Part shown: one piece after another, positions 1-19,473 of the stretch
How the letters are laid out: every line of letters begins with the position of its first letter
Numbering within the stretch: position 1 is the first letter of the stretch
UHGV virus genome: UHGV-0317890
DNA from: a virus
Strand: one strand, 5' to 3'
Length of the DNA stretch: 42,560 nucleotides
Notes under the pieces: generated by a model
The model's database searches: none
Seen by the model: only the letters and a program-made list of their open reading frames with translations
What the model was told of the DNA's origin: nothing
Translations under genes and position numbers: made by a program

Positions 1-958
1 TCTGTCGCGGGTTCTTATGCCCGGAAATTGCTTGCTTCTCTTCCAGGCTGCCTTCCAGATCAGAGATACCTTTTGCTTTCAGATCATGAAATGTGAAGTC
101 TATTTGCAGATGAGGATATTTTTCCTGTGCTGCCGCTTTGACATCACGCCAACGAGAGTTAAAACCATCACGGGTATACTTGCCACCGGTAGTTTGATGA
201 ATCACAAACAGGCTACTGATTCCCGTTTTTAATGGCAGAGAACGAGCCAGAGCTATCGCTTTCTGCAGACGAGGCGACCAGGCTTTGATTTGCTTAACGC
301 CGGTTTTTCCCTGACGAATGTAGATCCCGGAATCGAACAGCTGGTCTTTCTGCAATGAAAGTACATCACTCTGTCTGGCCACGCATAAGTAGGCAATCTC
401 CATTGCTACGCGAACAACATCAGGAGACACTTCATAAACGGCCTGATATTCTTCATCCGTAATATAACGTTCGCGAGCTTTCTCTTTAAACTGTTTAACT
501 CCCTGACAAGGATTCCTCTGAACATAACCTCGTTCATAACCCCAACGGAATACCCGGGACATAAAGCTTTTTTCCCTGTTTGCCTGAGTTCGGCTTGATA
601 AACCGCGTTGATCCATATAGCGCCGAATATGTTCAGGTTTGATTTTATCCGGGTCGATCTTCCCGAAGACAGGCAGAACTTTTCCGGAATATTTTGTGTA
701 GTCTTTCCGGGTTTCGACTGCCAAATCCATAAAATCAGGGGAGGTCATGAATTGTTCCGTGAGCGCCTGAAAAGTATTTCTTTCTTTTTCGTCACCGACC
801 GCTTTTTCATATGCCAGCCATACGGCTGATCGTGGTGCATCCAATGCGCACAGGCGTATCGCTTTGTTATCTTTATTCCTGAATTCGTAGGCCGCTTTGC
901 CCTGGTAAACACGAGGCGGCATCCAGTTATCTGCTGGGTTCTTTCTCTTTCCGGCCAT
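1..958 (-). CDS. int: Tyrosine-type site-specific integrase (C-terminal end runs off the left edge of the window)
   Basis: Absent from ORF track because no stop lies in the window. Minus-strand translation from ATG at ~958 gives MAGKRKNPADNWMPPRVYQGKAAYEF...IDPDKIKPEHIRRYMDQRGL...HDLKAKGISDLEG as one open frame of ~319 codons; integrase-like N-terminal and core regions. Confidence 0.8.
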   Translation of the reverse strand, partial: MAGKRKNPADNWMPPRVYQGKAAYEFRNKDNKAIRLCALDAPRSAVWLAYEKAVGDEKERNTFQALTEQFMTSPDFMDLAVETRKDYTKYSGKVLPVFGKIDPDKIKPEHIRRYMDQRGLSSRTQANREKSFMSRVFRWGYERGYVQRNPCQGVKQFKEKARERYITDEEYQAVYEVSPDVVRVAMEIAYLCVARQSDVLSLQKDQLFDSGIYIRQGKTGVKQIKAWSPRLQKAIALARSLPLKTGISSLFVIHQTTGGKYTRDGFNSRWRDVKAAAQEKYPHLQIDFTFHDLKAKGISDLEGSLEEKQAISGHKNPRQ

Positions 959-1190
959 TAAATATTGCTCCAAAATCAGGTTCATCATCTTTTCGCGTCG
1001 TCACCTCCTGTAAATTGCGAAATTTTATTGGGTTCATGAAATGGCCCCAGGTTGTTTTTGGGTGTCCGTCAGCCCTTTCCATGAAGAAAATTCCAGCCCG
1101 GCGAAGAGCCTCACATTGCTTTGATTTAAGTGGGCTTCCCGTCAGCTCGACCATTTCTTCTCTGGTGATTATGTCGTGATCGCTTTTCAT
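927..1190 (-). CDS. xis: Excisionase-like small DNA-binding protein
   Basis: 87-aa ORF directly upstream of int and overlapping its start; ...ALRRAGIFFMERADGHPKTTW resembles the lambda Xis fold region; position typical of xis. Confidence 0.5.
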   Translation of the reverse strand: MKSDHDIITREEMVELTGSPLKSKQCEALRRAGIFFMERADGHPKTTWGHFMNPIKFRNLQEVTTRKDDEPDFGAIFNGRKEKEPSR

Positions 1191-1380
1191 GGTCTTTCCT
1201 CATTATGTAGCTTATTGCGTCATCTGCCTTCTGGCAGGCACGGGCAATATCAGACTCGGTCAAAGTCTGTTTCCTGACGCTGGCCGACAGTCGACCAATT
1301 TTGATATCAAATGCGGAGAGCAGAGTTGCTCCCGGTTGCCATCGCAGCATTGTGATCCTCCGGTGTCTGGTGAATCGCAA
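1126..1380 (-). CDS. Hypothetical protein (boundaries uncertain; overlaps xis by ~65 nt)
   Basis: 84-aa ORF in the leftward early operon; no recognisable motif. Confidence 0.3.
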   Translation of the reverse strand: MRFTRHRRITMLRWQPGATLLSAFDIKIGRLSASVRKQTLTESDIARACQKADDAISYIMRKDHEKRSRHNHQRRNGRADGKPT

Positions 1381-1399
1381 TGCTAGCGATGGTGAGTTT

Positions 1400-1582
1400 T
1401 TATTTCTGATTAGGCGTAATCAGTTCTTGTGGGGTGAATGCCGATTTCTCCCGAGTGACCTTAATGTTTTCTGGCAGGTGTAGCCCAAGTTCGCAGCGGC
1501 TCCGTGCTTCAATAATGCCATTGGTACCATCGGCAAGTACCAGGTGAACCGCGTCACCACGCTTTAATGTGAGTTTAAGCAT
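1400..1582 (-). CDS. Hypothetical small early protein
   Basis: 60-aa ORF whose ATG overlaps the stop of the upstream gene (TAATG on the minus strand), suggesting translational coupling. Confidence 0.4.
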   Translation of the reverse strand: MLKLTLKRGDAVHLVLADGTNGIIEARSRCELGLHLPENIKVTREKSAFTPQELITPNQK

Positions 1583-2151
1583 TAGCGTATCCTCAGTGAC
1601 CGTTCGCCGCGTTCCAGATGTGCGCCTGGTACCGGGTTTAATAACTCGGCTGGTGGTGTTTCTCCACGCGCCAGTATTTCGGCGGCAACCGCCTCCGCAG
1701 ATTCAATCACTTCTTTAATGGCTCGCTTGTTTGGTGTAATAACCGTTTCTACATCAACAAGTGACACGCCCTCATACTCATCCGGGATCTTATCTTTGCT
1801 ATCGATAATTACCCGGATAGCCCCCTGTGCATCAGTAAATGTGTTTTTTGCGGTTTTCAGTTTATCCAGGCCAGCAGCTTGCAGGCAGGTGAGCATATGC
1901 TTTCGAATTGCTTTTTCCTTGCCTTCAAAGGACGTCTTACGGGTTGCCAGGCGAGACATTTCTTCAGCGCAGGTATTGGCATTGCCCTGTAAATTACGGC
2001 AGATGACCATCATGGCGTCCAGTTTGTCTCCCAGTTCTCCTTCCATGCCTTCAAGCGTGTCGGCGATCATCTCTGGCGTCAGTTCATCGGCGGTTTCTAA
2101 CAGGTCAATCAGACTGGCATATTCTTTTGCAATAGCGATAGCAGTGCTCAT
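1582..2151 (-). CDS. Siphovirus Gp157-like protein (recombination-module accessory)
   Basis: 189 aa; N-terminal ...LIDLLETADELTPEMIADTLEGMEGELGDKLDAMM... and central ...KNTFTDAQGAIRVIIDSKDKIPDEY match the Gp157 family pattern as recalled; start overlaps upstream gene (ATGA). Confidence 0.55.
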   Translation of the reverse strand: MSTAIAIAKEYASLIDLLETADELTPEMIADTLEGMEGELGDKLDAMMVICRNLQGNANTCAEEMSRLATRKTSFEGKEKAIRKHMLTCLQAAGLDKLKTAKNTFTDAQGAIRVIIDSKDKIPDEYEGVSLVDVETVITPNKRAIKEVIESAEAVAAEILARGETPPAELLNPVPGAHLERGERSLRIR

Positions 2152-4364
2152 GCTGTTTGCTCCTGTGCAGCGGTAAGGGCGGCGAGGCGTTCAGTTTTAA
2201 TGTCGGTGATACGGCGCAGACGTGATCCCAGATACGATGAATATTCTTTATCGCCTTTGGTTTCCGCTGCTTTCCTGTGTACATCCACTTCGCGGGCGAT
2301 GAGGCCAAATACCTTGTTTACTTCGTTGGCGGTTACCGCGGCGGCCAGCGTATTGGCAACGTTGATAAGCTTCTCATCCAGTTCCTTACGCAGACGGGTA
2401 GCATCTTCCGCATTCTCGCTGGCATTCTTGATATCAAACTCAGCTTTATTCCTCTGGCGGTATTCCGGATTGTCGTACAGGCCCATGAAAATATCGGCGC
2501 TGAATCCGAGAGGGGATAGCGCTTTCTTAACAGCATCCGTCCAGGATTTCTTCGGTGCTTCGCCGTCGCTTGTTGGTCCGTATTTAGTGTCGTAGATATA
2601 AGGTGTGCATCCGTAAGCCTCGGACTCACCGCGTACCCCATTCAATATGTACCAGACTCTCACTTTCATGGTGTGGTGCATTTCACATAGGTACCCGCCA
2701 ACACCGTCTTGAATCAGATCCCATTCTATTTTTTCACCAACCTGTTTTTTGCGAACTATTGGTGCGCCTTTATCAAAGCGCTCCTCCAGCACCTCTACCC
2801 CCCAGCCAATACCAAATGGCCCAAATTCGCGAGTCGCTTTCATCGCTATATAAGTGCCGTTGATGGATGTGCCGCCGCCATTCTGAGAGAAAGCACTGGT
2901 GAAGCGCTCATCGGTTTTGAATACGTTCTTCCACAATGCCAGGTTATCCGTGTCATCTGAGTCCTTTAACTCCGTTTCGATAGCTGAGATTGCATTCTGC
3001 CGCTTGTGCTCTTCGGCATGGATCCGCTCAACCAGCGCGTCAACGTTCTGCACCAGATCCTTTACCTGCTCGCTAAGTTGTTCTTGTGGAGGAGTCTCTT
3101 CTGCCAGGGTAATAGCTGCAGGTTCCCTCTGTGATACGGCGTTATTTTCAGGTACGTCATACACATGGCGAGGCGTGACAAACTGCTCACGCAACTGCTG
3201 CAAACTACGTTCTCCAGCATTTGCAGCTTCGCTTTTTTCGCCCTGATTTGAGGGTGTTTCTGACATCATCCCATCAATTGAGAATCGTCCGCCGCCGTGG
3301 TTGGTGACTTTTACATCATCCTTGGGTGCTGCTTCCTTTGGCTTCTCTTCAACAGCATTTGCATCACGCTGCCCGTTAGCTTGCAGCCAGTTGTCGATGT
3401 GACTGCGCAGGGATTGTGGGAAGTGGTACGTGTCTTTTGCGGGGGCGCTCTGAATAACACCGAATACTGATGCGCGGTCATAGGCAAGGATCTGATCCGT
3501 TGTGCGCAAGGCCATTGACCAGCGTTTAAAATCTTCCCTGTCCTGACTGATTATTTCGTCTGCCGCTTTCAGGATGCTGGGGGTGATTTTTTCCGGGGCA
3601 ACAGGTAACAGGGCGCAGGCAATTTCACGATCCAGAGTGGCGTGAGTCTGTTTGTAAGGACGTGCGGATGCTGTTTCTGGTTTTACCTCCGGCAGCATTT
3701 CATCTCGTTTACCGGGATTCTCTACCCATTTTTTTATAAATTTGGAGATAGTCCAACTGGTCGGGTTTTGTTCCTGGGTATCGCAACTTGCCAAAATTGC
3801 ATGTACCAGATTATTCAATCCAGCAATATGCATGTACTCGATGGGCTTACACGCCACCATGGCATCAAGAACGATGCGGTTAAACGCGTCAACCTCATCC
3901 TCACTGTCAGTATCACTGTTATCGAGCATCTCCAGGTATTCACGCGTCTGCACAAGCAATTCACTGTCGACTTCGTTGGCGTCGTGGCTGAACAGCAGAA
4001 CGGCGGCGAATCGTTCACGAGCCGGCAGTTTCATCAGGTCGCTAACCTGTGAGATATCTGCTGAACTGCAATCTGAATCAACAGGAGTGTTAACTACCCA
4101 TTTTTCGCCATCAAAACTGTGTTCTGTGGCAAACGTCTCATCAAACTCACCGACGCCTGGGCGCGGTTGGCCCGGGGCATCTTCCCAGATTTTAGGTTTG
4201 AAATAGTTGTCGCCGTGGTCAGGGTAGGCTTCCCACAATTTGCCGATGATGATGTTCTCGGCAACTTTTTTGTTAGGGGCGGCGATGGCGATGGCCAGCG
4301 CCGGGATCGCGCCGTTTTTGAGCGCGCCTTTTTTCGCTTCTAACAAGCCGTTAAAAATGGTCAT
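2148..4364 (-). CDS. Recombination protein: Rad52/Erf-type single-strand annealing domain at C-terminus with a ~500-aa N-terminal extension of unknown function
   Basis: 738 aa; C-terminal ...PKKSWTDAVKKALSPLGFSADIF resembles the conserved annealase motif K-x-A-x-TDA-x-KRAL-x-x-FG of the Rad52/Sak/Erf superfamily; RBS GAGGAAAGACC before ATG. Confidence 0.55.
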   Translation of the reverse strand: MTIFNGLLEAKKGALKNGAIPALAIAIAAPNKKVAENIIIGKLWEAYPDHGDNYFKPKIWEDAPGQPRPGVGEFDETFATEHSFDGEKWVVNTPVDSDCSSADISQVSDLMKLPARERFAAVLLFSHDANEVDSELLVQTREYLEMLDNSDTDSEDEVDAFNRIVLDAMVACKPIEYMHIAGLNNLVHAILASCDTQEQNPTSWTISKFIKKWVENPGKRDEMLPEVKPETASARPYKQTHATLDREIACALLPVAPEKITPSILKAADEIISQDREDFKRWSMALRTTDQILAYDRASVFGVIQSAPAKDTYHFPQSLRSHIDNWLQANGQRDANAVEEKPKEAAPKDDVKVTNHGGGRFSIDGMMSETPSNQGEKSEAANAGERSLQQLREQFVTPRHVYDVPENNAVSQREPAAITLAEETPPQEQLSEQVKDLVQNVDALVERIHAEEHKRQNAISAIETELKDSDDTDNLALWKNVFKTDERFTSAFSQNGGGTSINGTYIAMKATREFGPFGIGWGVEVLEERFDKGAPIVRKKQVGEKIEWDLIQDGVGGYLCEMHHTMKVRVWYILNGVRGESEAYGCTPYIYDTKYGPTSDGEAPKKSWTDAVKKALSPLGFSADIFMGLYDNPEYRQRNKAEFDIKNASENAEDATRLRKELDEKLINVANTLAAAVTANEVNKVFGLIAREVDVHRKAAETKGDKEYSSYLGSRLRRITDIKTERLAALTAAQEQTA

Positions 4365-4394
4365 TGGTCTTTCCTCATTACAGGTCAGTGGTTT

Positions 4395-4715
4395 TTAGTA
4401 GGGGAGCTCATCGGTATCTGGCGTGTATTCGATGCAAAGTAACTGCTGGATTTTGTCATCGATAGCAGCAATACGCTGTTGGGCGTCGGCGACTGTTTTC
4501 TGTTTTTGTTCACGCAGTTGCTCGACCTGTAAACCGATGATGTCGATTGGCTCGGGCTGGTTAACGGTAATTTCAATTTCGCGGCTTTCCAGAAGGATGT
4601 ACCTGTCTGGAAAATTTTTTGACATATCAACAGTCGCAACAAGCAGCTTTTCGTGGCTGAAAGTTGAAGTTGCATAATGAATAAAGAGTGTTACTGGGAT
4701 GGTGCGCGCTTCCAT
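4395..4715 (-). CDS. Hypothetical early protein
   Basis: 106-aa ORF, first gene of the leftward operon; RBS AAGGAG before ATG. Confidence 0.5.
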   Translation of the reverse strand: MEARTIPVTLFIHYATSTFSHEKLLVATVDMSKNFPDRYILLESREIEITVNQPEPIDIIGLQVEQLREQKQKTVADAQQRIAAIDDKIQQLLCIEYTPDTDELPY

Positions 4716-4799
4716 AGCGACTCCTTGGTAATGTATACTCAGAGCCGATCAGCGAATATTGATCAGCTTCCATAGCGTCAGTGTCGTTGGTCTTTCCTC

Positions 4800-4823
4800 A
4801 TCACAAGTTTGGTCACTTGTGAT
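4800..4823. promoter_or_regulatory. 24-bp perfect palindrome ATCACAAGT-N6-ACTTGTGAT upstream of the leftward operon
   Basis: 9-bp inverted arms with 6-bp spacer about 85 bp upstream of the 4715 start; operator or RNA hairpin. Confidence 0.3.
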
Positions 4824-5577
4824 AAATCCGAATGGTTTGGTCGCCGTTCGGGGTAACTGGCCCGCCTTGTGCGGGTCTTTTGCTATCTAAAGGGTGCCGG
4901 TTACGTTTCCGGCGTCGTTATGTTTCCATTACGACCGTACAGGGCTGGTCAGGCCCGGGCTGGTCTTTCCTGTTTTGAGCTGGTCAGGCTCATGGTCAAC
5001 GCTGGTCAGGCGTGGTACTTCCTCCGGTCTTTCCCTGGTGTCACGCTGCGGGTTTGGCCTCTCCTGTTGGGGACTCAGGCACAGCGATAAAACCTGGCTG
5101 TGTGAAAAAATGGCCCATCGTGCGGACTGGGCAAAGACTAAACACAGCAAATTGATGATGGGCGCCCGGAATCGAACCGGGTAACGGGCAGGGAGTTCCC
5201 GTTAAACACCTGTTCACCACAACCGGGAGCGCACTCCGCCATTTCAAAATTTAACGACAAAGCTCAAAGTTGAGTCGATGAAGTGCGCTCTCGTGTTGTA
5301 GCCAGGACTCTTCCCTGGTGGTCACACCGTATCGCCTTGATGGTGAATCAATCGCTCATACCTGGCTGTGGCTTGCACATTCCGGCTACCTGCTATGGAG
5401 ACAACGCGTTAAGGCTCCGCTTCCATCCAGACCGCTTCGACACATGTGCCATATGCCGGTGAAGTCTTTCCCTCTGTCACCGTGTTGGCGCCGACGCGCA
5501 AAATTTGGTGCCGTCTTTCCGGCTGTCAGAACGTGTTTCTGAACAACTGCCGCTGGGTAAGCGTTGTTGATGAAAGT

Positions 5578-5607
5578 GACTTTACAATTTGTATTTGTAA
5601 TGGTCAA
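5578..5607 (-). promoter_or_regulatory. Candidate leftward early promoter (pL-like) with overlapping ACAA-T-TTGT / TTTGTAAT operator-like repeats
   Basis: Minus strand reads TTGACC-N18-TAAAGT; the TTTGTAAT motif recurs in the 6155-6237 operator region. Confidence 0.25.
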
Positions 5608-5725
5608 TGTGTTTTTAAAAAATAATTTGTAGTGAGGGGCAAAAAAATATTCACTGTGTAAAGGTGTTTTTGTGTTAGGGGAAAGTTGCATGCCAGCAGC
5701 GGCTGGCCTGGAAATTTGAACTGAA

Positions 5726-6154
5726 CTATTTTGTCTGGTTTTTGGCTTCAAGTAGTTCTTTTAGCAGTAGATCGAAGTGCTCTCTTTTTTCTTTTAGCTC
5801 ATTGATTAATTTATTTTTTTCGCTCTCAGGCAGTCCTCTGAATAGTTGCAGTAGAGCCTGTTCTTGCGGGGTTAGTTCTTGATTGTAATTACCCGGGTGT
5901 AGTGTGGATTCATCCAAATATTCCCCTTCATTCATGAAGAAAAAATGAACAGGGTATCCGGTCACTTTTGCTAGCTTGTCTAATTTATCTTTTCTTGGAG
6001 TTACCCCATTACACCATGCCTGAACTGATTGAGCCGTAACCCCAATATGGCGAGCTAACTCAGATTGAGACCAGCCTAAGTCTTTTAGAATCCGTTGTAG
6101 TCGGCTAGCAAAAGCCATGTTTTTCGTTTTTGTGTTCATACCGTAAGGATACAA
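5726..6154 (-). CDS. Prophage repressor, HTH_XRE family (CI-like; no LexA-type S24 peptidase domain)
   Basis: 142 aa; ...FASRLQRILKDLGWSQSELARHIGVTAQSVQAWCNG is a classic XRE helix-turn-helix; divergent from a cro-like gene. Confidence 0.7.
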   Translation of the reverse strand: MYPYGMNTKTKNMAFASRLQRILKDLGWSQSELARHIGVTAQSVQAWCNGVTPRKDKLDKLAKVTGYPVHFFFMNEGEYLDESTLHPGNYNQELTPQEQALLQLFRGLPESEKNKLINELKEKREHFDLLLKELLEAKNQTK

Positions 6155-6237
6155 GGTTTAATTGTAGGGAGCATTGCAAATATAATTTGTAATTACAGTT
6201 ATTGTTTGTAATGATGACGCGGACACAAGGAGTCCAT
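6155..6237. promoter_or_regulatory. Divergent promoter/operator region between repressor and cro-like gene
   Basis: 83-bp AT-rich spacer containing palindrome CAAATATAATTTG and repeated TTTGTAAT half-sites (ATTACAG...TTTGTAAT). Confidence 0.45.
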
Positions 6238-6468
6238 ATGGATAAACAACTGCAAGACAAAATTCTTTCCGTAATGAGTCAATCCGAGTTAGGGCGGCGA
6301 TTAGGGAAAAAACCACAAACGGTAAGCCTCTGGTTCAAAGGACGGGTTCCCGGTGAAGAGGTTTTGCGCACATCTGAAGCTCTTGAATGGCGCGTGACCC
6401 CTCATGATCTTAGACCGGATCTTTACCCAAACCCAGATGACAGCTTGCCTAAAACGGAAGCAGCTTAA
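6238..6468 (+). CDS. Cro-like transcriptional regulator (YdaS-like)
   Basis: Start moved to ATG at 6238 behind AAGGAG; 76 aa with ...SQSELGRRLGKKPQTVSLWFKG HTH; immediately divergent from the repressor. Confidence 0.65.
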   Translation: MDKQLQDKILSVMSQSELGRRLGKKPQTVSLWFKGRVPGEEVLRTSEALEWRVTPHDLRPDLYPNPDDSLPKTEAA

Positions 6469-6526
6469 CTGTTGGTGAGCCCCAAATCTGATTAAGCGTA
6501 ATCAATTTTTAGCGACAGGAGACGCT

Positions 6527-7003
6527 ATGGAAAACCAAGAGGAATTACAAAAAGAGATTTTGACCTGGGCGGCAAGGGCAGGGCAGGAACTCGTCACGAT
6601 TGAAATCTGCCGGGCCTGGTTCAGTCAGGGACGCAATGATGAGTTGAGACTACATGAATTTGAGGACGCGGACGGCAACGTGGACTGGAGAGCCATCAAC
6701 AACAATCGGCAGAAAATCTTTCGCTGGTTACGTGGCGAGACAACGGCGGCGCGCCGAAAAACTCAGGTGCTGGCCAGTGTGATGAAAGCCGTGCTACCCG
6801 CAGAACGGCGGGCACGTCTGGAGTCGCCGGGCGATCCCGTTTTGCTGGCAACGCTGGCGGCAAAAGAAGGGGTGGAAGCGATTAACGCTGTACATCTCCA
6901 CTTCGCGCCAGAGTTAACTATTCAGGAAATTGACGAAGCAATAGCGGCGCTGGTAGCGACGCGAGGAGCAGTGATACGCACTGCGCAAGACCACCATGCA
7001 TGA
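6527..7003 (+). CDS. YdaT-like protein (CII-position regulator)
   Basis: 158 aa; segment QKIFRWLRGETTAARRKTQVLASVMKAVLPAERRARL matches the recalled Rac YdaT core (..YHRWLKGETKTQREKIQKL..LPRELRHRL). Confidence 0.55.
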   Translation: MENQEELQKEILTWAARAGQELVTIEICRAWFSQGRNDELRLHEFEDADGNVDWRAINNNRQKIFRWLRGETTAARRKTQVLASVMKAVLPAERRARLESPGDPVLLATLAAKEGVEAINAVHLHFAPELTIQEIDEAIAALVATRGAVIRTAQDHHA

Positions 7004-9874: not shown

Positions 9875-10111
9875 ATGGCCGGGCAATCAGATTACCTGCC
9901 GCCCGGCTTACCACACAACCGCGCCAAATGGCCCCAGGAATACCAGCTTAAAGAGCACTACGACATGCGAGCGGCGGCGCTGATCCGCCAACTCTTTGAG
10001 AAACGTATTCCGAGGGGAAGCGTGATTGAGCAAATCGGAATGACGCCAGATACGTACCGGGAATTTTTCAGAGAGCGTCTGAACTACTGGAGAGGGGTGA
10101 TGGAACAATGA
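9875..10111 (+). CDS. Hypothetical protein
   Basis: 78-aa ORF with RBS AAAGGGG; abuts upstream gene. Confidence 0.45.
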   Translation: MAGQSDYLPPGLPHNRAKWPQEYQLKEHYDMRAAALIRQLFEKRIPRGSVIEQIGMTPDTYREFFRERLNYWRGVMEQ

Positions 10112-11050: not shown

Positions 11051-11079
11051 TTGACTTAGAAAAAGTCCGGGGCTATAGT
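11051..11079 (+). promoter_or_regulatory. Sigma-70 promoter (TTGACT-N17-TATAGT)
   Basis: Near-consensus -35 and -10 hexamers with 17-bp spacer, read directly from sequence, immediately after the stop of the upstream gene. Confidence 0.6.
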
Positions 11080-11139
11080 TTCCGCGCAGCCGCAAAATCG
11101 GTTGCCGGGATTGGCGTCCCGGATATCTAAGTGACGCAT

Positions 11140-11160
11140 AGCCGCGTTAGCGGTTTTTTT
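11140..11160 (+). terminator. Intrinsic terminator-like hairpin plus T7 run, ~75 nt downstream of the 11051 promoter
   Basis: AGCCGCG-TTA-GCGG stem-loop followed by TTTTTTT; preceded by a second stem-loop CCGGGA-TTGGCG-TCCCGG at ~11105-11122. Confidence 0.45.
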
Positions 11161-11291
11161 ATGTGTTAGGCACGGCCACATTCGCATTATGGTGGGCTGT
11201 GTGGGGGCTTCTGTGGAAGCGCCGGGTTCACTTAGCCGGTTACGCCAACCCTGCACAGCTCACCACCAGATGATTGGCGTCGCTGGTGGTG

Positions 11292-12110
11292 ATGAAAAAA
11301 ACACTAAGTGAGGCCACTGCGATGACAGTCCAAATATCTGCGGAATCCCTTTCTCCGCTACATCATAACCAACTTCCCGTCATCACTACTGAATTGCTTG
11401 CCAGTTTGTATGGCACGGAAGTAAATGGTATCCAGCAAAACTTCAAGCGCAACATCGCCAGATTTGTCGTAGGAAAGCATTTTTTTAAGCTGGAAGGTAA
11501 TGAATTACGCGACTTCAAAAACAGACTGACAGATAGTCAGTCAGTTGCTAAACATACCCGATCCCTCATTCTCTGGACAGAACGCGGCGCAGCTCGCCAT
11601 GCCAAAATGCTGGAAACAGAACAGGCCTGGGAAGTTTTCGAAAAGCTGGAAGATTGTTATTTTAGCCAGCGTCCAGAGAGGCGGAGTACAACTACCGATG
11701 ACCGTACTCCCTTGCGTGATGCCGTTAATATACTGGTCGGCAAGAAAGGCATGATGTATCCCGATGCCTACACCATGATTCATCAACGCTTCGCCGTCTC
11801 TCACATAGAACAACTGTCACAGACGCAAATGTTAGAGGCGATTGAATACATCCACTGCCTGCTACTCGATGAAAATCACCCAACCATTCCAGATTTTTCT
11901 TTTATCACCACTATCAAAAATGGAAAAGTGACCGGGATGCGCCATGTTGCCAAAGGCGAACATCTGATGACCTTTGACGCTTTCAAAGAGATCGCTGAGC
12001 GGGCAGGGTATCTGGTGATCCACAGCGACAATCTGCGAAGTATGACACTGGATAAATTGATGGTAATGGGGAAAAAGTCGGCTATATCCGTTGCTAATTC
12101 AGCATTTTGA
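11292..12110 (+). CDS. ant: Phage antirepressor (ORF6N/KilA-N-type N-terminal domain)
   Basis: ~270 aa; N-terminal LPVITTELLASLYGTEVNGIQQNFKRNIARFVVGKHFFKLEGNELRDFK matches the ORF6N antirepressor domain pattern; start uncertain (11292 or 11322). Confidence 0.65.
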   Translation: MKKTLSEATAMTVQISAESLSPLHHNQLPVITTELLASLYGTEVNGIQQNFKRNIARFVVGKHFFKLEGNELRDFKNRLTDSQSVAKHTRSLILWTERGAARHAKMLETEQAWEVFEKLEDCYFSQRPERRSTTTDDRTPLRDAVNILVGKKGMMYPDAYTMIHQRFAVSHIEQLSQTQMLEAIEYIHCLLLDENHPTIPDFSFITTIKNGKVTGMRHVAKGEHLMTFDAFKEIAERAGYLVIHSDNLRSMTLDKLMVMGKKSAISVANSAF

Positions 12111-12284: not shown

Positions 12285-13208
12285 TTATTGGTTTCTGAGG
12301 AAAGCGATTCTTGAAAGGGTCATTTGCGTCTGGCAGTCGACCATTTTCTTGACTTCAGCATCTGTTCCCTGCATTGAAACTTTACCGCACATAGCATCCT
12401 TAGTTTTGATCCACTGACGCTGAGAAGGCAGCAAATCTTTTTTCTTCGCCGGGGTTAACTTGCTCCAGACGGTACTCAAATCAGAGTCGGCATTCGCAAA
12501 TGCCATTCGGGACTGATCAAGGTTGTCAGCTTTTTGCGGCTGAAGTTGTGCCTGTCTCTCTATTTGCTTCTCCGCCTCATACTTAGCCTGTTCTTGCGCC
12601 CTGAGTTGCACCTGTTGTTCCGCTTCAATTTGACTCTGTTGGGCATCCTTAGCCTGCTGGATTTTCTGCTGCTCAACGATCGGGGTGATAATGGAAAGCG
12701 ATGTCAGTAAAGCGGCGCCCACTGATATCGGATTATCAGTAGAGGTTTTTACAAAAACGTTTTTCTGATCGTCGGTCGCCTGCACGGTGTAGGTGATACG
12801 TTTTGAAAAGGCGTTTGCGTTGTTCTCCAAAAACAGGCTTTCCATTTGCTTATCGAGATTACGATTAAAATTCTTTCTGTAAGCATCTGAAAGCTGGACG
12901 TACTCGTTCGCAGATAGAGTCATCGTCACGGTCCCTTCACAAGTTTTCATTGTGCTGCCCGTGTCACTTGATGTTGTGGAGATCTCAGAGATGGCTAGTT
13001 TGATCTTGTCCAGTGTGCTTCGTTTGGTCTGATTAGTGACATCAGGGTATTTATCGACCTGTTCAGAGAGTCCTTCATAAGCAGATTTTTTTAATAAATC
13101 CATGAGAGCTGACTGGGTTATTTCCGAAGAACAACCGATCTCATCTTTTTTGTTATCACAGCCTGTAAGGGCAATGGCGAGTAAGAGTACTGAGTATTTT
13201 AATCTCAT
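12285..13208 (-). CDS. Lipoprotein with Gln-rich coiled-coil linker and C-terminal DUF1311 (LprI-like) domain
   Basis: 307 aa; signal peptide plus lipobox LLLAIALTGC; Q/A/E-rich repeat region; C-terminal ...QRQWIKTKDAMCG...C-containing domain as in DUF1311 proteins. Confidence 0.6.
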   Translation of the reverse strand: MRLKYSVLLLAIALTGCDNKKDEIGCSSEITQSALMDLLKKSAYEGLSEQVDKYPDVTNQTKRSTLDKIKLAISEISTTSSDTGSTMKTCEGTVTMTLSANEYVQLSDAYRKNFNRNLDKQMESLFLENNANAFSKRITYTVQATDDQKNVFVKTSTDNPISVGAALLTSLSIITPIVEQQKIQQAKDAQQSQIEAEQQVQLRAQEQAKYEAEKQIERQAQLQPQKADNLDQSRMAFANADSDLSTVWSKLTPAKKKDLLPSQRQWIKTKDAMCGKVSMQGTDAEVKKMVDCQTQMTLSRIAFLRNQ

Positions 13209-14396
13209 GAATTCCCTTTAGAGTAAGGATTGGTTTTTAAGACGCGGTCTGTAATCAGTCCCGAGAGCTACAGTAAACAACGCTGAGCACTGAACGCATC
13301 ACAGGTAAGGTAAAAGGTGATATCGGCAAAGGCTGTGAAACCTTTAATTCAACAGATGGGAACGGTATGCGCAGGATCCTGTAACGACGCTCCCAAAACC
13401 GGAAACCTGTAAGGCATGTTTTCGCTGCTGAACTTAATATACGAACCTGCACTATCATGAACATATTTTATATCGTTATACCCCGAGTGATTGTGCCCGG
13501 CAATGGATAGTGTCCTGGAGGAACTATTTCTACTGTAAAAGGTAGATATTTAATTTCAGTTTTGAATTATTCCCTGCTGTTAATAACAATGGCTGTATAT
13601 GGCACCGAGTAGGCATTTTTTCGCTTACTGAAGGGCAGCTGTGAGCGAGGAACAGACTTTCCCTACTTCGTTGAGAGTACACCTAGTACAATCAAGGCTA
13701 AATGATAAAAATATACAAAATATCATATTTATGATATATATAATGGCATTAATCTTATTCTTGGATTACGTTGAAAGGGTAATATTATATTTGTGTAACA
13801 TAGTTTAGATAACAATGCCGTTATGGGGGGGGGAAAGACATTTCAACATATTAGCTTTGTATCTAACGCTCATGTAGATCTCGATTTTGAACTTAAAGAA
13901 CAATTATTTTTTAGAGAGCAAGGTATTTTTGGGGAACAAAAACATAAAGTAATGGAGAGAGGAGAATGTATCAAAAAATCATCGATTTAATTTAGATTGT
14001 CCGTATAGTTGGGGGTAAGTCGAATCGCTGGGCTACATGGAATATTGTGTCAAGTAAAAATATATTTCAATCTTGCAATAACCGATTGTTGAAAATAATG
14101 TCAAATCTTAATGGTGAATGGGGAGAATATAATAAACATGAGTCGATATTATGCAAATGGATTTAAATATTTTATACCCGAAGACATAGGGTTTCGAGAG
14201 TTCGATGAGACTACTTTGAATGCTTTCGAATTTGCTGGCTAAAACATATAGGTTATATCTTACATCTGTTTGTAATGGAGCGTAGATGCGACAAGCTACA
14301 CCATAATAATCATATTATGATATATTGTTAAGTTGTTATGGCATTAAATAAAATTATGTCATTTTGTTAACCAAGCAAGAATCAAAGGACTTTTAG

Positions 14397-15095
14397 ATGG
14401 GTACGGCATTAATTTCAAGCTTTATTAGTGGTGCAATAGCTATAATCTCTATTGCTATATCTACTTATAATCAGAATAGAATAAACAAGCTCAATGAATC
14501 ACTGGATGTAAGGAGAAAACATCAGTACTATATTGAACCGTTAATTCGCTCAGCTTCAGACTTACAAAGCCGTATTTATAATATATTAGAATTGGGGTTC
14601 ATTGAAGAGTTTTATCATAATGGGAATAAGCGCCAACAAGATTATGTTATCAACAATACTGTTTTTCTTTTTTCCCAGTTTTTTGCATGGACAGAAGCTG
14701 CCCGCATAGACATTCAATACCTTAGCCTAGAAAAAAATAAAAAAATGAGGGAGTTTATTAGATTACAGAACAATATTAACTCATTAATCCAAACAGACGT
14801 CTTTGGTCAGTATTTTATGTTTTTCATAGGAGAGCAGAGAGCTATTGCAGAAAAGATGCTGATATCAACAGATACTGGATTTGATTGCATAGGTTACGGC
14901 AGTTTCACAAAGGAAAATTGCTTTATCAATGAGCCATTTTTTTTAGATTTAAACAATGAAGTGATAAATATGACAAGAGATATCGGAATTTATAAAGAAA
15001 GGCTAATCAGAATACAGCACGCGTTAATCGATTTAATTAATTTTCTTGATCCTGGCATGATTCGATTTGACGGAAAAAAATATGGAAAAATATAA
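14397..15095 (+). CDS. AT-rich orphan protein with N-terminal transmembrane anchor
   Basis: 232-aa ORF in a low-GC island; N-terminal hydrophobic helix ALISSFISGAIAIISIAISTY; no recognisable catalytic motif. Confidence 0.55.
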   Translation: MGTALISSFISGAIAIISIAISTYNQNRINKLNESLDVRRKHQYYIEPLIRSASDLQSRIYNILELGFIEEFYHNGNKRQQDYVINNTVFLFSQFFAWTEAARIDIQYLSLEKNKKMREFIRLQNNINSLIQTDVFGQYFMFFIGEQRAIAEKMLISTDTGFDCIGYGSFTKENCFINEPFFLDLNNEVINMTRDIGIYKERLIRIQHALIDLINFLDPGMIRFDGKKYGKI

Positions 15096-15287
15096 CCCAG
15101 ATGATTCGTATCAAGGTAAGTTGCTATATGTATCAATTTAATTATGGTTGGGTGAAATTTATGTTAATAGTAGCGGAGGGTTAGTTAAAATATGCTCTCA
15201 GTGATTTTTGGATAGTTCTTTTATTTATCATTGAAAGTAAATATGTATAGCTTCAAGATTTACAAGTGAATCTGTTTATTGACAGTC

Positions 15288-15318
15288 CGCTTATGGCACA
15301 GAGCGGACTGTCATATTA
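15288..15318 (+). terminator. Hairpin (11-bp perfect stem) downstream of the AT-rich gene
   Basis: GACAGTCCGC...GCGGACTGTC with 12-nt loop, followed by an AT-rich tract. Confidence 0.4.
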
Positions 15319-15510
15319 AATTTGGCTCCACGCCATAGATGTGTCAGCTCATATCTTATCTAATACACACAATAACTTTCTCATTCTTGGAGAATTATTT
15401 TTTTAAGGGTAGGTGTTGACGTTAGAGCAAAAGAATGGTGATTTTTTTGATGTGTATTACGTTGGAACTGATGGGAATAACTATCTGTTTTCAACGCACT
15501 GCTAATTTAT

Positions 15511-15532
15511 CAAGGCCCTTTGATCAGGGCCT
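15511..15532 (-). terminator. Hairpin downstream of the membrane-protein gene (minus strand)
   Basis: AAGGCCCT-TTGATC-AGGGCCTT perfect 8-bp stem; weak U-tract. Confidence 0.3.
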
Positions 15533-15557
15533 TCGAAAGACTGTTGGACCGAGAGAG

Positions 15558-16163
15558 TTACTTGCGTTTAAAAAGGTATTTTGTCACGACCAGCACGAGG
15601 CCGAATACCTCTGTCAAAGTACCGCCCATGTACAACTGTAGTGTTAAATCCTCAAATTCCAGCTTACCTGCGCCGTCGGCAATAAATACACCATTCATTA
15701 TCAGAAGTTGGAAAGCAAGGATAATCAGGAACCATTTCCCGTATCGTTTTTTTAGAGCGATTTCTGCTTCAAAATCTTTGTTGTTGAGTTGTTTGCGCTC
15801 ATGCTCGGTATCAAGTGAATTCACCTGTTTCACAGATGTGAACTCGGTCAAGATTTTACTCTCAGTACGGGTGACTTGTTGAGAGGGTGTAGCAGTTGGA
15901 ATTCTTTTGCTAGACGCAGCTACAGCCATTTTGCGAGCTTCGGCAGCTCTTTTTCTGGCTATTCCGCGAATACGGACAGCCGTTTTTTTGGGGGCGTGCG
16001 AAACCTTTGGCTGAGGTGAAGCTTCGTCAGGAGACTGAACCGGAGTTTCATCGTCCTCCGGCTCAACCTCTTCTGCTAACTGACGGTGTAGGTTGAGGGA
16101 ATCCTTCAGTCTGCGTGCTACTTCCTGTTTGAAACGGCTGTTAAAATCGTCATCCGATGGCAT
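15558..16163 (-). CDS. Membrane protein with basic N-terminal region and two C-terminal transmembrane helices (partner of ImmA-like peptidase)
   Basis: 201 aa; C-terminal KWFLIILAFQLLIMNGVFIADGAG and LTEVFGLVLVVTKYLF hydrophobic segments; starts 10 nt after the stop of the peptidase gene; last 68 bp duplicated at 12139-12206. Confidence 0.6.
   Translation of the reverse strand: MPSDDDFNSRFKQEVARRLKDSLNLHRQLAEEVEPEDDETPVQSPDEASPQPKVSHAPKKTAVRIRGIARKRAAEARKMAVAASSKRIPTATPSQQVTRTESKILTEFTSVKQVNSLDTEHERKQLNNKDFEAEIALKKRYGKWFLIILAFQLLIMNGVFIADGAGKLEFEDLTLQLYMGGTLTEVFGLVLVVTKYLFKRK
15562..15629. repeat. Direct repeat copy B (3' end of the membrane-protein gene), paired with 12139-12206
   Basis: TTGCG(T/C)TTAAAAAGGTATTT(T/G)(G/A)(T/C)CACGACCAGCACGAG(G/A)CCGAATACCTCTGTCAAAGTACCGCCCAT shared by both copies. 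Confidence 0.8.
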
Positions 16164-18586: not shown

Positions 18587-19183
18587 ATGGCGCAGCATTC
18601 ATTTATCAGGGTATCCGGCGGTTCGCTAATACCCGCGACACCAGACACGCAACGCTGGTTGACTGAACGAGTCAAACCAGGTGCTGTTGTGTATGCAGAT
18701 TTCAAACAGGCGCGTAATCCCGCGTTTCATCGTAAATTTTTCTCACTTCTCAACCTGGGCTTTGATTACTGGCATCCGTCCGGAGGGGCTATTTCTCCTG
18801 CGGAGCGCGAACTGGTTCACGGCTACGTTAAGTTACTGGCGTATTACGGTGGACACGGTGATGTCATGGCAGAGCTGGCTGATCAGTATCTTCTCGATGA
18901 GTCGGAAAAGCGCGCGGGGAGTATCAGTGCGGTGAAGTCGTTCGAGGCGTTTCGCGCATGGGCGATTATGGAAGCTGGGTTTTATGACGTTCATCAGATG
19001 CCAGACGGCAGTTTGATGCGCGTACCTCGTTCAATCTCGTTTGCAGCGATGGACGATCTTGAGTTCGGTCAACTGTATTCAGCCGTTTTAGATGTGCTGT
19101 GGAATTATATTTTGTTCCGCACATTTGCCTCTCAGGAGGCCGCTGAAAATGCCGCCGCGCAGCTGCTGGATTACACATCATGA
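18587..19183 (+). CDS. Nin-region protein of unknown function (DUF1367-like by recollection)
   Basis: 198-aa ORF just upstream of the YbcO-like gene; family name is recollection only. Confidence 0.45.
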   Translation: MAQHSFIRVSGGSLIPATPDTQRWLTERVKPGAVVYADFKQARNPAFHRKFFSLLNLGFDYWHPSGGAISPAERELVHGYVKLLAYYGGHGDVMAELADQYLLDESEKRAGSISAVKSFEAFRAWAIMEAGFYDVHQMPDGSLMRVPRSISFAAMDDLEFGQLYSAVLDVLWNYILFRTFASQEAAENAAAQLLDYTS

Positions 19184-19473
19184 AAAAAATCGACCTGAGA
19201 AAAGCTGCACGCAGTCGCGCTTGTACTGTGCGTATCCCCGGTGTGTGCAATCACAATCCTGAAACCAGCGTACTGGCTCATTATCGTCTCGCCGGAACGT
19301 GCGGCACAGCCATCAAACCTCACGATATGCAGGGCGCTATCGCCTGCAGTGCGTGTCACGATGCCATCGACGGACGTACAAAAACGGATTACGAGCACGA
19401 CTCATTGTTGTTGATGCACGCTGAGGGAGTTTTCAGAACACTGGCTATCTGGCGCGATGAGGAGTTTATCTGA
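19180..19473 (+). CDS. YbcO-like Cys-rich putative nuclease (DUF1364)
   Basis: 97 aa; ...RKAARSRACTVRIPGVCNHNPETSVLAHYRLAG...IACSACHDAIDGR with conserved Cys/His pattern as in DLP12 YbcO. Confidence 0.55.
   Translation: MKKIDLRKAARSRACTVRIPGVCNHNPETSVLAHYRLAGTCGTAIKPHDMQGAIACSACHDAIDGRTKTDYEHDSLLLMHAEGVFRTLAIWRDEEFI

What the first reader, a model, noticed from the sequence alone, without database searches (positions are those of the whole stretch)
1582..4364. Recombination module: Gp157-like protein plus a 738-aa protein with an annealase domain fused to a large unknown N-terminal region
Only the C-terminal ~200 aa of the large protein resemble Rad52/Erf-type single-strand annealing proteins (motif ...TDAVKKALSPLGF...). 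The N-terminal ~500 aa, acidic and Ser/Asp-rich in places, have no assignment. Annealases are usually 200-350 aa, so this is an unusual fusion. The adjacent, translationally coupled Gp157-like gene often accompanies Sak/Erf recombinases.
Basis: partly seen in the sequence, partly recalled or inferred. Interest (0 to 1): 0.45.

Follow-up and report, generated by a model that had tools for sequence, protein, structure and literature searches.

The report
Annealase fused to RecE's non-catalytic N-terminus
An E. coli prophage gene labelled "exonuclease" or "hypothetical" actually encodes a Rad52-type DNA-annealing protein joined to the N-terminal region of RecE, whose function is unknown, and related phages attach that same region to two unrelated exonuclease domains, so it behaves as a swappable module.

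Summary
A 738-aa ORF (2148-4364, minus strand) overlaps the start of a Gp157-family gene (1582-2151) by ATGA.

The "unassigned" N-terminus can be assigned. It is Pfam YdfE_N (PF27430), colinear with the non-catalytic N-terminal region of RecE/ExoVIII, including short motifs in the disordered linker. Its function is still unknown, and the model matches no solved fold.

Related phages join the same N-terminal region to a PD-(D/E)XK exonuclease followed by RecT, or to a DEDD 3'-5' exonuclease. One IMG/VR contig carries a natural chimera: about 490 residues of the Gifsy-2 RecE N-terminus, then this annealase, then Gp157.

The four-gene cassette (106-aa protein, fusion, Gp157, 60-aa protein) is conserved across Enterobacterales prophages. 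It occurs in 71 of 80 IMG/VR loci and in 463 of 5426 complete E. coli genomes.

The protein has no nuclease domain, so "exonuclease" is a misannotation. This is a new variant of a known kind, of moderate interest.

The parts
2148..4364 (-). 738-aa fusion protein: YdfE_N / RecE-N-like region, then a disordered linker, a long helix and a Rad52-type annealase
   Evidence: ORF. Full-length match to phrog_2489. PF27430 YdfE_N on its own 90%-identity cluster and on homologues. Domain layout from local HMMs.
4089..4364 (-). Domain A (aa 1-92), a small alpha/beta domain and the most conserved N-terminal block
   Evidence: Invariant columns in A2. AF2 pLDDT about 70-84. Homologous to the mEp460 823-aa protein N-terminus and weakly to the RecE N-terminus (hhalign E 2.5e-5 to 8e-5 against 0.3-0.7 for shuffles).
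3699..4052 (-). Domain B (aa 105-222), an acidic helical module whose copy number varies among relatives
   Evidence: A2 alignment: absent in P0014 and P0241, where a related second module takes its place; that second module is present in addition in P0006, P0012, P0013 and P0016. Low AF2 confidence.
3348..3686 (-). Domain C (aa 227-339), a helical domain shared with RecE/ExoVIII and with DEDD-exonuclease fusions
   Evidence: NCBIfam exoVIII NF007259 positions 262-370, E 1.9e-12. phmmer E 1e-13 to 1e-19 against RecE of Gifsy-2, HK225 and a Klebsiella phage, and against mEp460. Alignment with the conserved pattern Y.HT..LD.E.A...P....R.A.EI......K.WS..LR.....L...R...F. pLDDT 75-84.
3084..3347 (-). 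Disordered linker (aa 340-427) holding the conserved short motif NHGGGRFSIDGMM (aa 355-367, nt 3264-3302)
   Evidence: pLDDT below 50 for aa 337-430. The pattern N.G.G.F[SD][VI]..[LM]M is also present in Gifsy-2 RecE, Klebsiella RecE and the Salmonella 757-aa fusion.
2964..3083 (-). Long helix (aa 428-467) directly preceding the annealase
   Evidence: AF2 helix 428-467, pLDDT 68-85.
2469..2963 (-). Rad52-fold annealing core (aa 468-632), including the signature helix EAPKKSWTDAVKKALSPLGF (aa 602-621)
2148..2468 (-). Three-helix C-terminal tail of the annealase (aa 633-738), basic (pI 8.5), plus the stop codon
   Evidence: AF2 helices, pLDDT above 90. Also present in stand-alone relatives. Composition.
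1582..2151 (-). Gp157-family protein (189 aa), translationally coupled to the fusion gene
   Evidence: Pfam Sipho_Gp157 E 9e-29. phrog_253 labelled 'Mu Gam-like end protection'. Start overlaps the fusion stop by 1 or 4 nt in 75 of 77 IMG/VR loci. It also follows stand-alone annealases.
4395..4715 (-). 106-aa protein just upstream in the cassette, with an SSB-C-terminus-like acidic tail (…DTDELPY)
   Evidence: phrog_2479. Conserved upstream of the fusion gene in 77 of 80 IMG/VR loci. 73 of 77 homologues end in [DE]-[IVL]-P-[FY].
1400..1582 (-). 60-aa protein downstream of Gp157 in the cassette, faintly CsrA-like
   Evidence: phrog_2482. Weak Pfam CsrA hit, E 0.097. Conserved after Gp157 and also present in the RecE-N::annealase chimera L204.

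Best explanation
The 738-aa protein is the single-strand annealing recombinase of a lambdoid E. coli prophage. It sits in the early-left operon, where lambda carries exo-bet-gam.

Shown:
- Residues 468-738 are a complete Rad52/Sak-type annealase: a Rad52 core plus a helical tail. It is orthologous to stand-alone 240-275-aa phage proteins that are also followed directly by a Gp157 gene.
- Residues 1-~380 are the non-catalytic YdfE_N region that also forms the N-terminus of RecE/ExoVIII, including a short conserved motif in the disordered linker.
- The protein has no nuclease domain, and the prophage early regions encode no 5'-3' exonuclease.
- The same N-terminal region is joined in related phages to a PD-(D/E)XK exonuclease (then followed by RecT), to a DEDD 3'-5' exonuclease, or to this annealase (then followed by Gp157 and the 60-aa gene). 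The junctions lie in the linker.

Inferred:
- The C-terminal part forms Rad52-like rings or filaments that bind ssDNA and anneal complementary strands. The ssDNA would come from host nucleases or from replication.
- Gp157, made in coupled amounts, is its obligate partner.
- The N-terminal region does not depend on which effector it carries. It probably acts as an adaptor or tether, with folded domains and linker peptides that dock the effector onto a host factor or onto DNA ends. This would be the same unknown job it does in full-length RecE, where it boosts linear-linear recombination.
For: Annealase identity:
- Pfam Rad52_Rad22 is hit by 24 of 28 relatives.
- hhalign to RAD52 is colinear and aligns the KK/TD signature helix (E 9e-4).
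- Stand-alone relatives cover the whole of 468-738.

N-terminus equals the RecE N-terminal region:
- NCBIfam exoVIII, E 1.9e-12. tblastn to annotated RecE/ExoVIII proteins.
- BLASTP 6e-20 to mEp460 (aa 14-331) and 4e-16 to Gifsy-2 RecE.
- hhalign over aa 1-216, with shuffle controls.
- Shared linker motifs. The Pfam name YdfE_N.

Modularity:
- Pfam on partner proteins: Rv2179c-like DEDD domain, E 6.7e-67; PDDEXK DUF3799.
- Census of 240 IMG/VR loci.
- Chimera L204: Gifsy-2 RecE aa 8-494 at 82% identity, joined to a Salmonella-type annealase, then Gp157 and s60.
- P0011 has a 97% identical N-terminus but a divergent annealase.

Partnership with Gp157.

No exonuclease in the module or the early-right region.

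RecE N-terminus: function unknown, but it enhances linear-linear recombination (PMC11611040, PMC11610958).
Against: - No biochemical activity was or could be tested.
- The protein itself scores below the Pfam Rad52_Rad22 threshold (13.6 against 20.3 bits), and sequence searches of the PDB find nothing.
- The adaptor role of the N-terminus is pure inference. Its AF2 model is weak (pLDDT 60) and matches no solved or viral predicted fold. No binding partner is identified. The linker motifs do not match any host-factor binding motif I could name.
- Gp157's function is unknown. My profile comparison with Mu Gam was negative.
- An N-terminal extension is the opposite of the usual layout of Rad52-superfamily annealases, in which the annealing domain sits at the N-terminus (PMC9870868). 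How a 470-aa extension affects ring or filament assembly was not examined.
Confidence: 0.65

Rival explanations
1. It is a RecE-type exonuclease, as PHROGs ('exonuclease', phrog_2489) and some NCBI records ('exonuclease family protein') name it.
For: Full-length hit to phrog_2489 'exonuclease', and partial hits to phrog_607 and phrog_2082, both annotated as exonucleases. NCBIfam exoVIII hit, E 1.9e-12. The ZF40 homologue is annotated 'putative exonuclease'.
Against: All similarity to real RecE proteins lies in aa 14-380, upstream of their nuclease domain. Pfam finds no nuclease domain. HMMs built from the RecE PD-(D/E)XK and mEp460 DEDD domains do not hit it, though they hit their own families at E 1e-138 to 1e-204. 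The NCBIfam score is 46 bits against a cut-off of 1269. The C-terminus has the Rad52 fold. The label appears to have been transferred through the shared N-terminus.
Confidence: 0.03
2. The N-terminal region is itself a new DNA-end-processing or end-protecting enzyme. The protein would then be a self-sufficient two-in-one recombinase that resects or protects ends and also anneals, which would explain why the prophage has no exonuclease.
For: No 5'-3' exonuclease gene in the early regions. The N-terminal fold matches nothing known, so a new activity is not excluded. Domain C has invariant D, E and R residues across all three architectures.
Against: In RecE and in the DEDD fusions the same region sits next to a real exonuclease, which would make a nuclease role redundant. 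The RecE nuclease domain alone substitutes genetically for full-length RecE (PMC11611040). No nuclease-like motif or family hit was found. Many phage annealases work without a cognate exonuclease; only 30 of 84 recE-like genomes paired an exonuclease with a recombinase in Lopes et al. (PMC2896510).
Confidence: 0.1
3. The long ORF is an accidental or decaying gene fusion (a frameshift or deletion joined two genes) with no function as a fusion. Only the annealase part would matter.
For: In Citrobacter murliniae the gene is split into a 513-aa N-terminal ORF and a 272-aa annealase ORF, and in Enterobacter sichuanensis it is interrupted. Some E. coli carry an ISEc52 insertion in the module. Stand-alone annealases are far more common.
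Against: The single ORF is kept in at least 9 genera, at identities from 35% to 100% and with conserved domain order. The N-terminal domains hold many invariant residues, which is not what a decaying region shows. The same N-terminal region is kept in frame with two other effector types. There is no Met or plausible internal start at the annealase boundary (sequence).
Confidence: 0.05

Closest known systems
Sak / phage Rad52-like annealases (lactococcal ul36 Sak, staphylococcal 80a Sak; Pfam Rad52_Rad22), and eukaryotic RAD52 and Mgm101
   Different: Known members carry the annealing domain at the N-terminus and are about 200-350 aa in phages (PMC9870868). Here it follows a 467-aa extension. 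Sequence similarity to the Pfam family is below threshold. The invariable downstream partner is Gp157.
RecE / exodeoxyribonuclease VIII (Rac prophage, Gifsy-1/-2, HK225)
   Same: Colinear N-terminal region: domains A to C plus the linker motifs. Same position in the early-left operon next to xis/int. A natural chimera links the two families.
   Different: No PD-(D/E)XK nuclease domain, with an annealase in its place. Followed by Gp157 rather than RecT. NCBIfam score is 46 bits against a cut-off of 1269.
CP-933P / mEp460-type 823-aa 'exonuclease' (E. coli K-12 YdfE is presumably its remnant; that is my reading of the Pfam name YdfE_N)
   Same: Closest N-terminus outside the family (aa 14-331, BLASTP 6e-20; hhalign probability 99.3). 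Same operon position.
   Different: Its C-terminus is a DEDD 3'-5' exonuclease (Pfam Rv2179c-like, E 6.7e-67). There is no Gp157 and no annealase gene beside it.
Lambda Red (Exo-Beta-Gam) and P22 Erf/Abc modules
   Same: A functionally analogous early-left recombination module of a lambdoid phage. An annealase plus accessory proteins made from coupled genes.
   Different: No exonuclease partner, and the accessory proteins are different (Gp157, the 106-aa protein, the 60-aa protein). Red-beta meets its partners through a C-terminal domain (PMC6393309), whereas here a large N-terminal region is added.

Membership tests
Rad52 superfamily annealase (Rad52/Sak class) | Rad52 N-terminal-domain fold (beta-beta-beta-alpha core) | tested here: met
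Rad52 superfamily annealase (Rad52/Sak class) | Passes the Pfam Rad52_Rad22 (PF04098) gathering score | tested here: not met
   13.6 bits against a cut-off of 20.3 (E 0.064). 24 of 28 relatives give hits, best E 1.4e-5. One relative (P0229) carries a precomputed PF04098 hit, and one (P0174) is named a Rad52/Rad22 family protein by NCBI.
Rad52 superfamily annealase (Rad52/Sak class) | Conserved DNA-binding helix with basic residues equivalent to RAD52 K152/R153 | tested here: inconclusive
   hhalign places EAPKKSWTDAVKKALSPLG on [20 protein letters not shown] (KK on K152/R153, TD on T148/D149), E 9e-4, probability 23%. The K, K, T and D columns are invariant or nearly so in the family.
Rad52 superfamily annealase (Rad52/Sak class) | Annealing domain at the N-terminus of the protein | tested here: not met
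   The domain starts at about aa 470 of 738. The general rule is stated in PMC9870868.
Rad52 superfamily annealase (Rad52/Sak class) | ssDNA binding, strand annealing, and ring or filament assembly | not testable with these tools
   Needs biochemistry or EM.
RecE / exodeoxyribonuclease VIII | C-terminal PD-(D/E)XK 5'-3' exonuclease domain | tested here: not met
   No Pfam DUF3799 or other nuclease hit. An HMM of the RecE nuclease domain hits Gifsy-2, HK225 and Klebsiella RecE at E about 1e-203 but not this protein.
RecE / exodeoxyribonuclease VIII | Passes the NCBIfam equivalog NF007259 | tested here: not met
   46.1 bits against a cut-off of 1269. Only positions 262-370 of 877 match.
RecE / exodeoxyribonuclease VIII | Adjacent recT gene | tested here: not met
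   The downstream gene is Gp157. RecT follows genuine RecE genes.
YdfE_N (Pfam PF27430) | Hit to the family model | tested here: met
   Precomputed PF27430 hit on P0001, the representative of this protein's own cluster (100% identical), and on all full-length homologues. The name YdfE_N is given. The model is absent from the local Pfam copy, so I could not rescore it.
Erf family annealase | Pfam ERF domain | tested here: not met
   No ERF hit for the protein or for any of 28 relatives at E up to 1.
Sipho_Gp157 (the 189-aa protein) | Passes the Pfam PF05565 gathering score | tested here: met
   101 bits against 28.6, covering 4-149 of 162 positions.
Mu Gam / Ku-like end-binding proteins (the 189-aa protein) | Detectable homology to Mu Gam | tested here: inconclusive
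   PHROGs labels phrog_253 'Mu Gam-like end protection'. hhalign of 3- and 10-sequence Gp157 profiles against Mu Gam gives E 0.14-0.25. No Pfam Phage_Mu_Gam hit. No PDB hit.

The most novel reading that the evidence does not exclude
YdfE_N, the enigmatic N-terminus of RecE, is a plug-in targeting module of lambdoid phages. Through its folded domains and conserved linker peptides it would dock whichever recombination effector it carries (5'-3' exonuclease, 3'-5' exonuclease or annealase) onto one host target, for example the replisome, SSB or DNA ends. The annealase fusion would then be an exonuclease-independent recombination machine, working with Gp157 and with the 106-aa protein that mimics the SSB tail. 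This would explain why full-length RecE promotes linear-linear recombination, and it would give a portable part for improving recombineering enzymes.
Probability: 0.3. Interest if true: 0.7.

Novelty: new variant of a known kind. Interest (0 to 1): 0.52.

Why it matters
**RecE's N-terminus.** Two recent reviews still call the function of the 560-aa N-terminal part of RecE unknown, although it is what makes RecET direct cloning (linear-linear recombination) work (PMC11611040, PMC11610958). Nature attaches the same region to an annealase and to an unrelated DEDD exonuclease, and swaps it at the linker. So its role does not depend on the nuclease. That gives ready-made natural constructs to test it with.

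**Layout of annealases.** This is a widespread Rad52-type annealase whose annealing domain is not N-terminal and which always comes with Gp157. That widens the known architectures of the superfamily and points to Gp157 as an annealase partner.

**Annotation.** Thousands of E. coli and Salmonella prophage genes labelled "exonuclease" or "hypothetical" should read "Rad52-like annealase with YdfE_N domain".

Tried and rejected
- Pfam, NCBIfam and PDB sequence searches with the whole protein gave no domain call.
- A profile search of PDB sequences with the annealase family found nothing significant. Only the fold comparison worked.
- Megablast against GenBank phages found no match.
- The N-terminal AF2 model (pLDDT 60) was searched against the PDB and BFVD with Foldseek. 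Nothing reached E 1e-3. afdb50 was not available.
- Gp157 against Mu Gam by hhalign, and against the PDB by profile, was negative. I gave up on building a deeper Gam profile because the phage collection offers little diversity.
- Literature searches: YdfE and Gp157 gave no functional data. The first RecE search was spoilt by prefix matching. A Gifsy-1 paper turned out to be irrelevant.
- PADLOC defence models gave no hit for any of the four cassette proteins.
- The search for related loci with a mixed alignment of all three architectures failed for lack of a conserved stretch, so I ran three narrower scans instead.
- The cyanobacterial hits of the genome scan (L019-L024) are short chance matches and were ignored.
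- An internal start that would make a separate annealase was rejected: there is no Met near the domain boundary.
Full report
**1. Observation**

The window is an E. coli lambdoid prophage integrated beside tRNA-Leu, downstream of uvrC-pgsA. On the minus strand, the early-left operon reads in this order:
- 106-aa ORF, 4395-4715
- 738-aa ORF, 2148-4364
- 189-aa ORF, 1582-2151
- 60-aa ORF, 1400-1582
- excisionase-like DUF4224 gene, 927-1190
- integrase (seen only in the homologous annotated locus L001; it lies beyond the window's start)

The 738-aa stop and the 189-aa start overlap as ATGA, behind an AGGAG. The 738-aa ATG has a GAGGA 6 nt upstream. The 189-aa protein is a clear Sipho_Gp157 member (E 9e-29). 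The two-gene stretch is present in 463 of 5426 complete E. coli genomes. It is at least 99% identical in 422 of them, and RefSeq (PGAP annotation) calls the large protein "hypothetical".

**2. The C-terminal part is a complete Rad52-type annealase**

- A search with residues 468-738 finds hundreds of stand-alone proteins of 240-275 aa from Yersinia, Pseudomonas, Providencia, Xenorhabdus and phages. They align from their first residues (M..NL.IW..V.KTD) to their ends with this segment. The fusion point is therefore exactly the N-terminus of an otherwise independent protein.
- Sequence methods barely see Rad52. Pfam Rad52_Rad22 gives 13.6 bits here, below the 20.3 threshold, but is hit by 24 of 28 relatives (best E 1.4e-5). 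PDB sequence searches are empty.
It lays the invariant EAPKKSxTDAxKKALSxLG helix on [20 protein letters not shown], so K152/R153 align with K-K (E 9e-4).
- No Erf signal appears anywhere.
- Conclusion: a Rad52/Sak-class annealase, with a core at about aa 468-632 and a basic helical tail at aa 633-738.

**3. The N-terminal part is the non-catalytic N-terminus of RecE**

- All full-length homologues carry the recent Pfam family PF27430, named YdfE_N. The local Pfam copy lacks this model, which is why one search was empty.
- NCBIfam's exodeoxyribonuclease VIII model matches residues 233-336 at its positions 262-370 (E 1.9e-12, far below the membership cut-off).
- tblastn with residues 1-334 hits annotated RecE/ExoVIII genes of Gifsy-1/-2, HK225, mEp237, SPN3UB and Klebsiella phages, and an 823-aa "exonuclease" of mEp460/CP-933P-type phages.
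- Pairwise BLASTP: residues 14-331 match mEp460 residues 15-339 (6e-20), and residues 142-324 match Gifsy-2 RecE residues 166-375 (4e-16).
- Profile comparison extends the RecE homology back to residue 1 (colinear 1-216 against 1-245, E 2.5e-5 to 8e-5; reversed and shuffled controls give 0.3-0.7).
- I distinguish three folded blocks: A (1-92, alpha/beta), B (105-222, acidic and helical, variable in copy number among relatives) and C (227-339, helical). These are followed by a disordered linker (340-427) and a long helix (428-467).
- The linker also shares short motifs with RecE. N.G.G.F[SD][VI]..[LM]M is present here, in Gifsy-2 RecE, in Klebsiella RecE and in the Salmonella fusion. GE[YF]VEGISDPNDPKW[VI]K is present in Gifsy-2 RecE, mEp460 and the Salmonella fusion, but not in this E. 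coli protein.
- The N-terminal model is only moderately confident (pLDDT 60; domains A and C about 75-84). It matches no solved or viral predicted structure.
- The literature calls the RecE N-terminus a domain of unknown function that nevertheless enhances linear-linear recombination (PMC11611040, PMC11610958). I found nothing on YdfE.

**4. One N-terminus, three effectors**

- In genuine RecE proteins the region is followed by a PD-(D/E)XK domain (Pfam DUF3799), and the next gene is recT.
- In the mEp460-type protein it is followed by a DEDD 3'-5' exonuclease (Pfam Rv2179c-like, E 6.7e-67), with no annealase gene nearby.
- Here it is followed by the annealase.
- I built HMMs for each block and ran them on loci fetched with three domain-C queries:
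  - Fusion-type domain C: 71 of 80 IMG/VR loci have the full cassette 106-aa | A-B-C-annealase | Gp157 | 60-aa. Most of the remaining nine are incomplete versions consistent with a contig end. The fusion stop overlaps the Gp157 start by 1 or 4 nt in 75 of 77 loci.
  - mEp460-type domain C: all DEDD, apart from three loci cut by the contig end.
  - RecE-type domain C: about 44 loci with DEDD, 25 with PD-(D/E)XK followed by RecT, and one (L204) with the annealase followed by Gp157 and the 60-aa gene.
- The L204 protein (814 aa) is 82% identical to Gifsy-2 RecE over residues 8-494. It then continues as the Salmonella-type linker and annealase, and the switch occurs at the shared linker motifs.
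- Conversely, P0011 has a 97% identical N-terminus to ours but a divergent annealase.
- The linker is therefore a recombination joint, and each effector travels with its own downstream partner.

**5. Distribution and partners**

- Fused proteins of 667-814 aa form about 25 clusters at 50% identity, against hundreds of stand-alone annealase clusters.
- The cassette occurs in Escherichia, Salmonella, Citrobacter, Raoultella, Enterobacter, Erwinia and Pantoea, in Pectobacterium phage ZF40 and in a Stenotrophomonas phage.
- Stand-alone annealases of this subfamily in Yersinia and Pseudomonas prophages and in phage PMG1 are also followed at once by Gp157. The annealase-Gp157 pair is therefore the older unit, and YdfE_N is an addition.
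- The function of Gp157 is unknown. PHROGs labels its family "Mu Gam-like end protection", but I could not reproduce any similarity to Mu Gam.
- The prophage has no 5'-3' exonuclease in its early regions. It does carry a NinB/Orf mediator (18587-19183).

**6. Mechanism**

Shown: the architecture, the Rad52 fold, the lack of a nuclease domain, the translational coupling, the conserved cassette, and the modular exchange.

Inferred:
- The C-terminal part oligomerises and anneals ssDNA as RAD52, Mgm101 and Sak do.
- The ssDNA comes from host nucleases or from replication.
- Gp157 is a stoichiometric partner.
- The N-terminus is an effector-independent adaptor or tether, because it serves three unrelated DNA-processing domains and carries conserved peptides in a disordered linker.

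Rivals considered: a true exonuclease, a cryptic enzymatic N-terminus, and an accidental fusion. I judge all three unlikely, for the reasons given in the rival entries.

**7. Comparison and novelty**

The protein works like a Sak/Rad52-type phage annealase and passes the fold test. It fails the Pfam threshold and breaks the "annealing domain at the N-terminus" rule. It is not a RecE: it has no nuclease domain, no recT neighbour, and 46 bits against a 1269-bit cut-off. It shares RecE's N-terminal region.

The domain family exists in Pfam and the protein family exists in PHROGs (mislabelled). I found no paper that describes the architecture or the three-way modularity. I therefore rate it a new variant of a known kind.

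Interest is moderate (0.52). The finding offers a concrete handle on the old question of what RecE's N-terminus does, and it corrects a widespread annotation. No new biochemical principle is demonstrated.

Noticed in passing
window 4395-4715 (-): The 106-aa protein upstream of the fusion gene ends in an acidic tail like the C-terminal tip of E. coli SSB (…DDDIPF, from memory): DTDELPY here, and ESDVPF, ESDIPF or TDEIPY in relatives. 73 of 77 IMG/VR homologues end in [DE]-[IVL]-P-[FY]. It accompanies the fusion-type N-terminus but is absent upstream of stand-alone annealases and of the RecE-N chimera L204. It may be an SSB-tail mimic or a small ssDNA-binding protein.
   Followed up: partly
window 1400-1582 (-): The 60-aa protein after Gp157 resembles CsrA (MLxLTxxxGD…, with invariant R44-E45; Pfam CsrA E 0.097, below threshold). 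It is conserved in the cassette across genera.
   Followed up: partly
window 11073-11270 (+) and 11274-12110 (+): Rfam finds isrK (80 bits), C4 antisense RNA (75 bits) and its a1/b1 target (53 bits) directly upstream of an anti-repressor gene (phrog_4792). This is a P1/P7-type C4-ant immunity element inside the lambdoid prophage.
   Followed up: no
window 4716-5725: About 1 kb between the repressor gene (5726-6154, -) and the first cassette gene has no convincing ORF. It holds three G+C-rich hairpins followed by T runs on the + strand (4859-4967). Terminator-like sites in the scanned stretch (900-6600) are enriched (18 found against 6.4 expected). A gap is also present in the Salmonella and BUCT708 relatives. 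It may hold antitermination sites or a small RNA.
   Followed up: partly
E. coli genomes H31-H36; L013 and L015: The module is sometimes disrupted. Six E. coli genomes have an IS3-family ISEc52 inside the two-gene stretch. In Citrobacter murliniae the fusion gene is split into 513-aa and 272-aa ORFs. In Enterobacter sichuanensis about 1.3 kb is inserted in the annealase domain.
   Followed up: no
relatives P0006, P0012, P0013, P0016, P0014, P0241 (alignment A2): The acidic helical domain B (aa 105-222) has a related second module of about 110 aa (LSAHDRWIYVLLFD…). It is present in addition in the 804-844-aa relatives, and it replaces domain B in P0014 and P0241. The N-terminal region is therefore itself built from repeatable modules.
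   Followed up: partly
L004 (phage mEp460) 3875-6346; IMG/VR loci L110-L189: The very common 823-aa E. coli prophage 'exonuclease' (at least 594 IMG/VR hits) is YdfE_N plus a DEDD 3'-5' exonuclease. No annealase gene lies beside it, so it is a lone end-processing enzyme in the slot where other phages keep a recombination pair.
   Followed up: partly
window 13001-16000: A low-GC island (GC 0.32-0.39, against about 0.48 elsewhere) holds an LprI-family gene on the minus strand and ORFs of unknown function (phrog_5606). It looks like a moron (accessory gene) insertion.
   Followed up: no
window 9875-10111 (+), 18587-19183 (+), 19180-19473 (+): The prophage also encodes a DNA polymerase III theta-like protein, a NinB/Orf recombination mediator and an HNH endonuclease. 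These are further DNA-metabolism genes that could act with the annealase.
   Followed up: no
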